A stretch of 64,000 nucleotides of DNA, taken from the NCBI RefSeq assembly GCF_003334335.1, contig NZ_QOWQ01000023.1, one strand, 5' to 3'. Positions within the stretch are counted from its first letter, which is position 1, and each line of letters begins with the position of its first letter. Below are positions 32,701-35,700 of this stretch, piece by piece. This stretch comes from Escherichia coli (GTDB taxonomy: Bacteria; Pseudomonadota; Gammaproteobacteria; Enterobacterales; Enterobacteriaceae). A program made the position numbers.

Positions 32701-35700
32701 TAGGGTACAGCACGATGAATCTGTTAGAGGCGCAATAGTGACAGATTTGATTATCAATTCCTATTTTGTTCTAAGGATAAAACCTTAGGTTGTGATCATC
32801 CGCACAATCCCTTAGTAACGCCAGCGGTCATAACGCTGATATTTCGGCACTTTTGGTGCTTTAATCGCCTTAATAACCCACACCACCGCAATCGCCAGTA
32901 GTAACCACGGCAGCAACTTAATCATCAATGCCAGCATACCGCCGAGGAACATAATGGCCGTCGCCACAACCAGCGCGGCGATAATGCCCAGCAACGAAAC
33001 GCCGGTGACCATCAGCATGACAAAAAAGCCAATCACAAAAAGTAGTTCCAGCATGATGCTCTCCCAAATATGAAATCTCTTGCTGGCATTACAAGAATCA
33101 TGCCAAAAATAATCTATTGATTTAACAGCAAAACGCCCCGCGACGGTGCGCAGGGCGTGGTGAATTTGACTACTTTTTGGTGAAAAGTTAACGCTTATCC
33201 GCCACCAGTTTGAGCGCGTGTTCCAGCACATTAATGTCTGCACCCGCTTTATGGGCATTTTCACTTAAATAACGCCGCCACTGCCGCGCGCCAGGAATAC
33301 CCTGGAACAAGCCCAACATATGCCGGGTAATATGGCCGAGATACGTCCCCTGGCTGAGTTCACGCTCAATGTACGGATACATGGCGCGCACTACCGCCAC
33401 CGGATCGGCATCGGTATCCGAGGAACCAAAGATCTCCCGGTCTACCGCCGCCAGAATACCCGGATTCTGATACGCCTCGCGCCCGACCATCACGCCATCC
33501 ATATGTTGCAGGTGTGCTTTGGCCTCTTCCAGCGACTTGATACCACCGTTAATCGACATTGTCAGATGCGGAAAGTCACGCTTCAGTTGATACACACGCG
33601 GATAATCGAGCGGCGGGATTTCACGGTTTTCTTTCGGGCTTAACCCCGAAAGCCAGGCTTTACGTGCGTGGATGATGAACATCTCACACTCGCCTTTGCC
33701 GGAAACGGTATTGATGAAATCGCAGAGAAATTCATAGCTGTCCTGGTCGTCGATGCCAATACGCGTTTTCACCGTCACCGGAATCGACACCACATCGCGC
33801 ATCGCTTTCACGCAGTCGGCAACCAGCTGCGCATTACCCATCAGACACGCACCAAACATGCCGTTCTGCACCCGGTCAGACGGGCAGCCGACATTCAGGT
33901 TGATCTCATCATATCCGCGCGCTTCTGCCAGCTTTGCACACTGCGCCAGCGCCGCCGGATCGCTACCGCCCAGTTGCAACGCTACCGGATGTTCTTCTTC
34001 ACTGTACGCCAGATAATCACCTTTACCGTGAATAATCGCCCCTGTGGTCACCATTTCGGTATACAGCAACGTATTGCGGGAAAGCAGACGCAAGAAATAG
34101 CGGCAATGTCTGTCCGTCCAGTCGAGCATTGGTGCAACGCTAAACCGACCACTCCAGTGAACGTCAGTTTTTTCAGGCATTGCGCTGGTTTGGTTGATTT
34201 TTTGCATTTCAGAATTACCGTGCATTTTCAAATGTAGAGATTATTTTATCGATATATCATGGGGTTATGTTATTCAGCATCACTATTCAGGAGGCTCAAT
34301 AGCGGGGTACTATACCATAACAACAGGAAGCGCCTGTCTCATTGCAAAAGAAAATTGAGATCCTCTCAAGGCATGAAGCTCTCACGAAGTGATGGAAATA
34401 ATCTTATTAGCCGTTAACTTTGTTAAGGCCAATGATAAACAATCCAGGTTCGACGATAAATAAAAAATCACACATTAAACTCTGGTGATATATCTCCCTG
34501 CTAATAGCATTGATAGAGAAAAAAGAACCCAATAAATATTGGGTCCTTTTATATAATGCCTTCCATACTATCGAAGAACTTCACATATTATTTCTCCGAT
34601 TTAACCCCGAACAAATCATAAATTAATTTAGAAGTGTCTGTAAGTATTTTAATCTCTTCCTTTGAGGTTGGGTCAAACGACTTCGCGAAGCTAATTAATT
34701 GTGGTGCAGCATCTCGCATTTTGCTTAAAATATCAGGATCGAGCGTTCCTTCATTCACCAGATGTGACATCTTATCCAGATAGCCATCAAAATTCATTTC
34801 TCCCCCATCAGCCAGACGCTTCATCTCTCCCAGGTACTTCTTCATATCACGTTGAGATAATTTTTCAAACTGAGCTTTCAGGTAGCTCTCATTATTTTCA
34901 TTAATATACACTGTTTCTGATAAATCTGCGTAGGCACTAGAATATGAAAGTGAAATTAACAGCGAAGCAAATAATTTTAAGCTGTTGTCATCATGTTCCT
35001 GGCAGGCATTAACAAACGTTAAAAAACCAGAACCTATTGCTTGAAAATGTATATTCGCTAAAGGTTCATTATCCTTAGATTCCTCATAAAATAGCTGAAC
35101 CGTGGAGGGAAGGTCATTCTTAGTTTCTACATCAAAAGTACATTGTTCAATGGGCATTGCATCTTTATTATCCCCAGGATTACATATACTATTAATCGCG
35201 AAATGAAAAATAGCCCGGTCAACAACTGATGCAATAAAGTCACGATCGTTTAAATCCTCATCAGTGCAATCGTCAATATACTTATTGACCCACATTTTGA
35301 GATCATTTATTTGCACAATTAAAAACACATTTTTTTACGTGCATGCCATAAATTATGCGTGATTCGTTGAATAAACAAATCTATTTTTGCAATAATTATA
35401 TCCCGATGACGCAGCGCTGCATAATCAATAGATTTACCATATATATTATTTAATTTACCTTTGATTGAACCTCTATTATCTAATTTATCTTTGATTGCAT
35501 CTTCATTATCGAATTGATTTGAATTGAGTGTTTTATTAAAGTATCCAGTTGCACCGGGTATTATCTTCAACATGATTCATCTACCTTTTTTGTCGTACCG
35601 TGTCCTCCTTATAATTCTTTTGCCATCTGGTCACTATCAAAAATCGCTCATAATTTCTGAACTACAGGTATGCGTTTAAACCCAGTTAAATAAATAGCGA

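What the first reader, a model, noticed from the sequence alone, without database searches (positions are those of the whole stretch)
33055..33187. Sigma54-type promoter candidate upstream of pspG
On the pspG strand, TGGCATGATTCTTGTA approximates the -24/-12 consensus TGGCAC-N5-TTGCA about 35-50 bp upstream of the pspG ATG, consistent with a PspF/sigma54-dependent phage-shock gene lying far from the main psp operon.
Basis: partly seen in the sequence, partly recalled or inferred. Interest (0 to 1): 0.3.

Follow-up and report, generated by a model that had tools for sequence, protein, structure and literature searches.

The report
Known sigma-54 promoter of pspG

Summary
The observation and the interpretation both hold, and the feature is already known. 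TGGCATGATTCTTGTA sits at window 33105..33090 on the minus strand, 36-51 nt upstream of the pspG ATG (33054), in the 133-bp dusA-pspG spacer of an E. coli chromosome.

The 17-mer TTGGCATGATTCTTGTA is letter for letter site OS40 of the published E. coli sigma-54 ChIP-seq map (PMC4591121), marked experimentally confirmed. Other papers report pspG as PspF-activated with one upstream activating sequence (UAS), induced about 20-fold.

My own tests agree:
- A leave-one-out sigma-54 matrix ranks it first of 127,968 positions in the window.
- All 80 orthologous loci from about 25 genera have a matrix-detected -24/-12 element upstream of pspG. It is the most conserved block of the spacer.
- A conserved dyad (TAGTC-AAATT-CACCA) at about -86, scanned as a matrix over 5 kb of pspF-pspA DNA, picks out two sites in the pspF-pspA spacer, which I take to be the two pspA enhancers.
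- A perfect IHF consensus lies at -43..-31.

Minor extras: the dusA terminator is nested inside the enhancer-promoter loop, an extra TTCACCA half-site lies 20 bp upstream of the dyad, and the -12 base is a conserved non-consensus T.

Interest is low.

The parts
33090..33106 (-). Sigma-54 core promoter TTGGCATGATTCTTGTA. GG is at 33104/33103 (-25/-24) and GT at 33092/33091 (-13/-12, a non-consensus T at -12).
   Evidence: Exact match. Top leave-one-out matrix score in the window. Identical to ChIP-seq site OS40. Invariant or nearly invariant columns in 75 orthologues. A matrix-detected element is present in all 80 loci.
33079..33079 (-). Predicted transcription start (+1), 12 nt downstream of the -12 base, 19 nt downstream of the motif centre (33098) and 25 nt before the ATG.
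   Evidence: Arithmetic on the sequence. It agrees with the 'Distance 25' listed for pspG in PMC4591121 Table 1. I did not see a primer-extension result.
33110..33122 (-). IHF consensus AATCAATAGATTA (WATCAANNNNTTR), at -43..-31.
   Evidence: One of 6 perfect matches in 64 kb. The C-A and T-A core columns are invariant in 75 orthologues. The IHF requirement at psp promoters comes from the literature (PMC3709507).
33130..33157 (-). dusA intrinsic terminator: a 9-bp GC-rich stem (33157-33149 with 33142-33134), a 6-nt loop and TTTT (33133-33130). It lies between the enhancer and the IHF site, at -78..-51.
   Evidence: Terminator scan. RNA fold z-score of -3.1. 96% of cells paired, 8 of 9 pairs with changes on both sides, 0 of 500 shuffles as good, and slid controls at 36-55%.
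33158..33172 (-). PspF enhancer (UAS): the dyad TAGTC-AAATT-CACCA, centred at 33165 (about -86).
   Evidence: Conserved block in 75 orthologues. A matrix made from it alone picks two sites in the pspF-pspA spacer as the top hits, on both strands, in 5 kb of K-12 pspF-pspA DNA. That these two sites are pspA UAS I and UAS II is from my memory of the literature. Binding itself is not tested here. The literature reports one UAS at pspG.
33178..33184 (-). Extra half-site TTCACCA, exactly 20 bp upstream of the right half of the dyad (33164..33158). Possible additional PspF contact.
   Evidence: Mean of 5.65 of 7 identities at offset 20 in 75 loci, against at most 3.6 at any other offset from 8 to 40. 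The pspA spacer has ATTCGCCA and ATTCGCTA at the same 20-bp spacing. The role is inferred.
33055..33078 (-). The rest of the 25-nt pspG 5' UTR (33079..33055) downstream of the predicted start, with Shine-Dalgarno GGGAG at 33065..33061.
   Evidence: Read from the sequence. Poorly conserved between genera apart from the Shine-Dalgarno sequence.
32812..33054 (-). pspG coding sequence (80 aa plus stop).
   Evidence: ORF list. TIGR02975 equivalog at 90.1 bits against a cut-off of 53.7. RefSeq annotation.
33188..33190 (-). dusA stop codon (TAA), the upstream boundary of the spacer.
   Evidence: DusA matches TIGR00742 and NF008774. dusA lies immediately upstream of pspG in 79 of 80 loci.

Best explanation
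This is the sigma-54 (RpoN) promoter of pspG, an unlinked member of the PspF (phage-shock) regulon of E. coli.

RNA polymerase-sigma-54 binds the -24 GG / -12 GT element at 33106..33090 as a closed complex that cannot melt DNA unaided. The enhancer-binding AAA+ ATPase PspF binds the dyad at 33172..33158 (about -86), and probably the half-site 20 bp further upstream. IHF bends the DNA at 33122..33110 so that enhancer-bound PspF touches sigma-54. ATP hydrolysis by PspF then opens the promoter and transcription starts near 33079.

Without membrane stress PspA holds PspF inactive. Secretin or proton-motive-force stress releases PspF, and pspG is induced about 20-fold.

Shown here: the site, its rank in the window, its conservation, the enhancer's similarity to two sites in the pspF-pspA spacer, the IHF consensus and the nested dusA terminator. 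Taken from the literature: sigma-54 occupancy, the dependence on PspF and IHF, and negative control by PspA. Inferred: the exact start site and the role of the extra half-site.
For: **The site**
- Exact single match at 33105..33090 on the minus strand.
- Best leave-one-out sigma-54 matrix score in 64 kb.
- Identical to ChIP-seq site OS40, which EcoCyc lists as confirmed. It is the only high-stringency site in the K-12 interval I estimate this window covers.
- The RpoN holoenzyme selects the dusA/pspG spacer in vitro.
- The Salmonella orthologue TGGCATGATTTTTGTAAG is enriched 39-fold in ChIP-chip.

**Regulation**
- pspA and pspG are named among only five genes with upstream intergenic sites that go up when sigma-54 is overexpressed, and both are attributed to PspF.
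- PspF binds UASs at pspA and pspG. pspG has one UAS and is induced 20-fold.

**Conservation**
- A matrix-detected -24/-12 element lies upstream of pspG in all 80 loci from Escherichia to Yersinia and Brenneria.
- It is the most conserved block of the spacer: TGGCA-G--T-TTGTAA is invariant or at least 90% conserved.

**Enhancer and architecture**
- A matrix built from the pspG enhancer block picks L001 2912-2928 and 2932-2948, in the pspF-pspA spacer, as the top four hits of 9,970 positions.
- A perfect IHF consensus lies between the enhancer and -24.
- No sigma-70-like promoter is found on the pspG strand of the spacer.
- A covariation-supported terminator insulates pspG from dusA.
Against: Nothing contradicts it.

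Caveats:
- The matrix score alone would occur by chance in about 1 of 4 random 64-kb windows.
- The -12 base is T, not the consensus C.
- I could not read the primary paper (Lloyd et al. 2004), so the experimentally mapped start and the PspF footprint coordinates are not verified against my coordinates.
- That the two sites picked out are pspA UAS I and UAS II is from memory; a literature search for them found nothing.
- In the Salmonella experiment with a promiscuous activator, pspG rose only 1.4-fold.
- A genomic SELEX study also lists NtrC at this spacer.
Confidence: 0.97

Rival explanations
1. The match is a chance resemblance to the -24/-12 consensus with no function.
For: A score of at least 17.36 turns up somewhere in 66 of 300 dinucleotide shuffles of the window. 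Two consensus positions are mismatched.
Against: The expectation within the spacer on the right strand is about 2e-4. The element is present in all 80 orthologous loci, with invariant core bases. Sigma-54 is bound there in vivo and in vitro.
Confidence: 0.005
2. Sigma-54 binds here, but pspG is mainly transcribed from elsewhere, by read-through from dusA or from a sigma-70 promoter. On this view the site is one of the many non-productive sigma-54 sites.
For: Most of the 135 E. coli sigma-54 sites are not known promoters. dusA lies immediately upstream on the same strand in 79 of 80 loci. The terminator has only four T residues after the stem.
Against: The hairpin has 9 pairs, 8 of them covarying, and is conserved in 75 species. 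No sigma-70-like site is on the pspG strand of the spacer. pspG goes up on sigma-54 overexpression and is reported as PspF-dependent. A PspF-type enhancer and an IHF site are conserved at fixed spacing.
Confidence: 0.02
3. The promoter is sigma-54-dependent but is driven by an activator other than PspF, such as NtrC.
For: Genomic SELEX lists the dusA/pspG spacer among NtrC targets at 58% (PMC8743547).
Against: The conserved upstream block matches two sites in the pspF-pspA spacer and nothing else in that 5 kb. Several papers state that PspF regulates only pspA-E and pspG. pspG is co-induced with pspA.
Confidence: 0.01

Closest known systems
E. coli pspG (yjbO) promoter, as described by Lloyd et al. 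2004 (J Biol Chem 279:55707) and mapped by Bonocora et al. 2015 (site OS40)
   Same: Identical sequence (TTGGCATGATTCTTGTA), the same gene, the same dusA-pspG spacer and the same predicted start 25 nt before the ATG. It is the same object.
   Different: Nothing differs. The spacer is 100% identical in many E. coli genomes and at least 95% identical in 5,425 of 5,426 complete genomes.
E. coli pspA promoter (pspF-pspA intergenic region)
   Same: Same -12 variant: TTGGCACGCAAATTGTA against TTGGCATGATTCTTGTA. An IHF-like box sits just upstream of -24 in both, at -45..-33 in pspA and -43..-31 in pspG. PspF dyads of the type T(A/G)GT(C/G)-AAATT-C(A/G)C(C/T)A occur in both, with right halves repeated 20 bp apart.
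   Different: pspA has two full dyads, centred at about -99 and -119 by my arithmetic, and shares its spacer with the divergent pspF sigma-70 promoter. pspG has one full dyad at about -86 plus a lone half-site. A terminator for the upstream gene lies inside its loop. It is reported as less inducible (20-fold against 100-fold).
Salmonella Typhimurium pspG promoter (STM4244)
   Same: Orthologous site TGGCATGATTTTTGTAAG, bound by sigma-54 in ChIP-chip.
   Different: One base differs in the spacer of the element. In the S. enterica subsp. arizonae and diarizonae loci the 5' UTR is about 33 nt longer.

Membership tests
Sigma-54 (RpoN) -24/-12 promoter | GG at -24/-25 and GC at -12/-13, exactly 10 bp apart, within a TGGCAC-N5-TTGCW context | tested here: met
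   GG is at 33104/33103 and GT at 33092/33091 with the correct spacing. The leave-one-out matrix score is 17.36 bits, above the median (15.7) of the 41 ChIP-seq sites the matrix was built from. The -12 C is replaced by T, as in pspA.
Sigma-54 (RpoN) -24/-12 promoter | Located upstream of a gene, on the same strand, at a plausible distance | tested here: met
   The motif ends 36 nt before the pspG ATG, and the predicted 5' UTR is 25 nt with GGGAG as Shine-Dalgarno sequence.
Sigma-54 (RpoN) -24/-12 promoter | Evolutionary conservation of the element beyond its flanks | tested here: met
   All 80 loci carry it, and 79 of 80 keep the GG. The core columns are invariant while the 5' UTR and the terminator loop vary.
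Sigma-54 (RpoN) -24/-12 promoter | Occupancy by sigma-54 holoenzyme | not testable with these tools
   Reported in the literature: ChIP-seq fold-above-threshold score (FAT) 15 in PMC4591121, genomic SELEX 54% in PMC8743547, and Salmonella ChIP-chip.
Sigma-54 (RpoN) -24/-12 promoter | Transcription abolished without rpoN and without an enhancer-binding ATPase | not testable with these tools
   Stated in PMC3068692, PMC2763126 and PMC3709507, all citing Lloyd et al. 2004. The primary paper is not held.
PspF regulon promoter | A PspF upstream activating sequence about 80-130 bp upstream of the start | tested here: met
   The conserved dyad at 33172..33158 is centred at about -86. A matrix built from it picks two sites in the pspF-pspA spacer as the top hits in 5 kb of pspF-pspA DNA. 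Their identity as the two pspA UAS is from memory. Physical binding was not tested.
PspF regulon promoter | An IHF site between the enhancer and the core promoter | tested here: met
   A perfect WATCAANNNNTTR at 33122..33110, with core bases invariant in 75 orthologues.
PspF regulon promoter | Downstream gene is a Psp protein co-occurring with the psp operon | tested here: met
   TIGR02975 PspG equivalog at 90.1 bits. Co-occurrence with the psp operon was not tested here. It is my recollection of Lloyd et al. 2004, which I could not read.

The most novel reading that the evidence does not exclude
The promoter itself is known. What the papers I could read do not cover is its fine architecture, which may carry conserved and functionally tuned features.
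- A third PspF half-site (TTCACCA, 33184..33178) lies exactly two helical turns upstream of the single reported UAS. This mirrors the geometry of the two PspF-type sites in the pspA spacer.
- The -12 base is T rather than the consensus C in 75 of 80 pspG orthologues and in pspA. It may be a Psp-specific setting of basal versus induced activity.
- The dusA terminator is kept inside the enhancer-promoter loop at fixed spacing.
Probability: 0.4. Interest if true: 0.2.

Novelty: already known. Interest (0 to 1): 0.06.

Why it matters
It matters little as a discovery. pspG has been an established sigma-54/PspF target since 2004, and this exact 17-mer is in published ChIP-seq tables.

Its value here is as a positive control: a reader working from sequence alone located a real, experimentally confirmed sigma-54 promoter and named its regulator correctly.

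The comparative data add small refinements that a Psp or sigma-54 specialist might use. They give a 75-species footprint of the whole regulatory region, a candidate extra PspF half-site, a regulon-specific -12 T, and a terminator nested in the DNA loop.

Tried and rejected
- **Primary paper.** Lloyd et al. 2004 could not be fetched by DOI or PubMed id. The mapped start and the footprint coordinates therefore rest on secondary sources and my arithmetic.
- **pspA enhancer sequences.** A literature search for 'UAS I' and 'UAS II' with pspA and PspF found nothing. The identification of L001 2912-2928 and 2932-2948 as UAS II and UAS I rests on my memory of Dworkin, Jovanovic and Model (1997-1999), plus their position in the pspF-pspA spacer.
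- **Pairwise alignment.** A MAFFT alignment of the pspA and pspG regulatory regions misaligned the two core promoters. It paired the pspG -24 box with an unrelated CTGGCATG in the pspA spacer. I used motif-anchored coordinates instead.
- **Inverted repeat.** TGGCAT...ATGCCA (33105-33100 and 33089-33084) around the promoter might have been an operator or a divergent site. It is not conserved outside Escherichia, and the plus strand gives no sigma-54 matrix hit there. Rejected.
- **RNA families.** The Rfam scan of 32600-33400 found no RNA family in the spacer or the 5' UTR.
- **Sigma-70 promoter.** The scan found none on the pspG strand of the spacer.
- **Other matrix hits in the window.** They are at 14101..14085 (-), 1788..1772 (-), 24438..24454 (+) and 39608..39624 (+), and score 13.9-14.9 bits. 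No high-stringency ChIP-seq site other than pspG is listed in the K-12 interval I estimate for this window. I treat them as chance.

Full report
**What is there**

The window is E. coli chromosomal DNA. A 701-bp stretch around the finding is 100% identical to many complete E. coli genomes, and all 5,426 genomes hold a match. The genes under it are annotated pspG and dusA.

On the minus strand, dusA ends with TAA at 33190..33188. pspG is the 80-codon ORF 33054..32812. It matches the PspG equivalog TIGR02975 at 90.1 bits against a cut-off of 53.7, and DusA matches TIGR00742. The finding's coordinates, 33055-33187, are exactly the 133-bp spacer between the two genes.

The quoted 16-mer TGGCATGATTCTTGTA occurs once in the window, at 33105..33090 on the pspG strand.

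**Is it more than chance?**

I built a sigma-54 weight matrix from the 41 other intergenic-sense ChIP-seq motifs in Table 1 of Bonocora et al. 2015 (PMC4591121), leaving pspG out.

- The 17-mer TTGGCATGATTCTTGTA (33106..33090) scores 17.36 bits, the highest of 127,968 positions on both strands. The median score of the 41 sites the matrix was built from is 15.7.
- It stays first when only EcoCyc-confirmed sites are used, and when pspA is also removed.
- The score alone does not establish function. 66 of 300 dinucleotide-preserving shuffles of the window reach it somewhere, an expectation of 0.25 per 64 kb.
- Conditioned on lying in the spacer on the pspG strand (117 start positions), the expectation is about 2e-4.

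**Conservation**

A scan of one genome per species with the PspG protein returned 80 loci. They run from Escherichia, Citrobacter, Salmonella, Enterobacter, Klebsiella, Raoultella, Kluyvera and Leclercia out to Yersinia, Rahnella, Biostraticola and Brenneria.

- In every one, the best matrix hit in the 220 nt upstream of pspG is a -24/-12 element of the form YTGGCAYG-N4-TTGTA.
- Scores are 15-19 bits in 79 loci. The exception is Citrobacter werkmanii, where GG has become GT and the score is 10.4.
- In 75 distinct Enterobacteriaceae sequences anchored on the motif, or aligned with MAFFT, the bases T-G-(G)-C-A-n-G-n-n-T-n-T-T-G-(T-A-A) are invariant or at least 90% conserved.
- The 5' UTR, the terminator loop and much of the dusA 3' end vary.
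- The spacer is a core-genome feature of E. coli: 5,425 of 5,426 genomes hold it at 95% identity or more.

**The rest of the regulatory region**

Positions are relative to the predicted start at 33079. That base is 12 nt downstream of the -12 base and 19 nt downstream of the motif centre. It gives the 25-nt leader that Bonocora et al. list for pspG.

1. **IHF site.** A perfect IHF consensus, AATCAATAGATTA, lies at 33122..33110 (-43..-31). It is one of six matches in the window, and its core bases are invariant across genera.
2. **dusA terminator.** The stem pairs 33157-33149 with 33142-33134, followed by TTTT at 33133-33130 (-78..-51). It is found by the terminator scan and folds with a z-score of -3.1. 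Covariation supports it strongly: 96% of cells are paired, 8 of 9 pairs change on both sides, 0 of 500 shuffles do as well, and slid controls give 36-55%.
3. **PspF-type enhancer.** A conserved dyad TAGTC-AAATT-CACCA lies at 33172..33158, centred at about -86. A matrix built only from this block in the pspG orthologues was scanned over 5 kb of K-12 DNA spanning puuE-pspF-pspABCDE (locus L001). Its four top hits of 9,970 positions are the two strands of 2912-2928 (ATGATGAAATTCGCCAC) and 2932-2948 (TTAGTGTAATTCGCTAA). Both lie in the pspF-pspA spacer, and I recognise them from memory as pspA UAS II and UAS I. So the block upstream of pspG is a PspF-type enhancer.
4. **Extra half-site.** A second copy of the right half-site, TTCACCA at 33184..33178, lies exactly 20 bp upstream of the first. 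Across 75 loci, identity at offset 20 averages 5.65 of 7, against at most 3.6 at any other offset from 8 to 40. The pspA spacer has ATTCGCCA and ATTCGCTA at the same spacing.

No sigma-70-like promoter is found on the pspG strand of the spacer, and no Rfam family matches it.

**What the literature says**

- The 17-mer is site OS40 in the E. coli sigma-54 ChIP-seq map. It has a fold-above-threshold score (FAT) of 15, is flagged 'C' for experimentally confirmed in EcoCyc, and is the only high-stringency site in the K-12 interval I estimate this window covers.
- pspA and pspG, attributed to PspF, are among the five genes with upstream intergenic sites that were up-regulated on sigma-54 overexpression.
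- Genomic SELEX with the RpoN holoenzyme selects the dusA/pspG spacer (PMC8743547).
- In Salmonella Typhimurium the orthologous site TGGCATGATTTTTGTAAG is enriched 39-fold in ChIP-chip (PMC3844500).
[quoted passage not shown] They give pspG one UAS and 20-fold induction, against two UASs and 100-fold for pspA. They place pspA at 29.4 and pspG at 91.8 centisomes. They report that deleting the pspG promoter changes PspF dynamics and basal pspA expression, and that IHF assists PspF binding and DNA looping at psp promoters (PMC3709507; also PMC3068692, PMC2763126 and PMC3041696).
- All of them cite Lloyd et al. 2004, J Biol Chem 279:55707, which I could not open.
- No PspF, PspA, PspB or PspC homologue is in the window, which agrees with 'far from the main psp operon'.

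**Mechanism**

This follows established knowledge of sigma-54 and enhancer-binding-protein systems, applied to the anatomy above. RNA polymerase-sigma-54 sits on the -24/-12 element as a closed complex. PspF, bound at about -86, is brought to it by an IHF-induced bend centred near -37. ATP hydrolysis by PspF then opens the promoter. PspA inhibits PspF until membrane stress releases it.

The dusA terminator lies inside the looped segment, so dusA transcription ends before the core promoter. Its stem varies by compensatory changes, while the distance between enhancer and promoter stays fixed in the Enterobacteriaceae set.

**Verdict**

Both the observation and the interpretation are correct, and the feature is already known in detail. 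Interest is low.

The comparative details are modest refinements and remain inferences. They are the extra half-site, the terminator nested in the loop, and T instead of C at -12. That T is seen in 75 of 80 pspG orthologues, where only 1 of 80 has the consensus C. It is also seen in pspA of E. coli and Salmonella, but in only 2 of the 41 other E. coli intergenic-sense sites.

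Noticed in passing
window 33178-33184 (-) and 33158-33164 (-): TTCACCA is repeated exactly 20 bp apart. 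The upstream copy is a lone half-site beside the dusA stop codon and is conserved at that offset in 75 species. The literature describes only one UAS at pspG.
   Followed up: partly
window 33130-33157 (-): The dusA intrinsic terminator, with 8 of 9 stem pairs covarying, is nested between the PspF enhancer and the IHF site of the pspG promoter. The enhancer-to-promoter spacing is fixed across Enterobacteriaceae.
   Followed up: yes
window 33091 (-), loci L002-L081, and L001 3027: The -12 base is T (TTGTA) in 75 of 80 pspG orthologues, and only 1 of 80 has the consensus C. pspA of E. coli and Salmonella also has T, against 2 of 41 other E. coli intergenic-sense sigma-54 sites. It looks like a signature of the Psp regulon.
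   Followed up: partly
L014 and L031 (Salmonella enterica subsp. arizonae and diarizonae), between the motif and the pspG ATG: The 5' UTR is about 33 nt longer (gap of 68-69 nt against 35 nt). It contains a GC-rich hairpin-like segment (ccggtaagcgc...gccggg), possibly an inserted REP-like element.
   Followed up: no
L076 (Yersinia vastinensis), L079 and L081 (Brenneria): The sigma-54 element lies 93-190 nt upstream of the aligned pspG start, which implies long leaders or different start codons. In Brenneria roseae the enhancer is a perfect palindrome, TTAGTC-GTTTT-GACTAA.
   Followed up: no
L025 (Citrobacter werkmanii NBRC 105721), about 35 nt upstream of pspG: The -24 GG is GT (TTGTCATG...), which drops the matrix score to 10.4. 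It could be a weakened promoter or a sequencing error.
   Followed up: no
window 33055-33187: A genomic SELEX study (PMC8743547) lists the dusA/pspG spacer as an NtrC target (58%) as well as an RpoN holoenzyme target. TTCACCA loosely resembles the NtrC half-site GCACCA, so this may be cross-binding.
   Followed up: no
window 14085-14101 (-), 1772-1788 (-), 24438-24454 (+), 39608-39624 (+): These are the next-best sigma-54 matrix hits, at 13.9-14.9 bits. No high-stringency ChIP-seq site other than pspG is listed in the K-12 interval I estimate for this window, so they are probably chance.
   Followed up: partly
window 32643-32686, both strands: A palindromic hairpin between pspG and the convergent qor-like gene gives weak, sub-threshold Rfam ctRNA_p42d hits (about 21 bits against a gathering score of 50). 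It is most likely a bidirectional terminator.
   Followed up: no
window 33084-33105 (-): The inverted repeat TGGCAT-N10-ATGCCA brackets the core promoter in E. coli. It is not conserved in other genera.
   Followed up: yes
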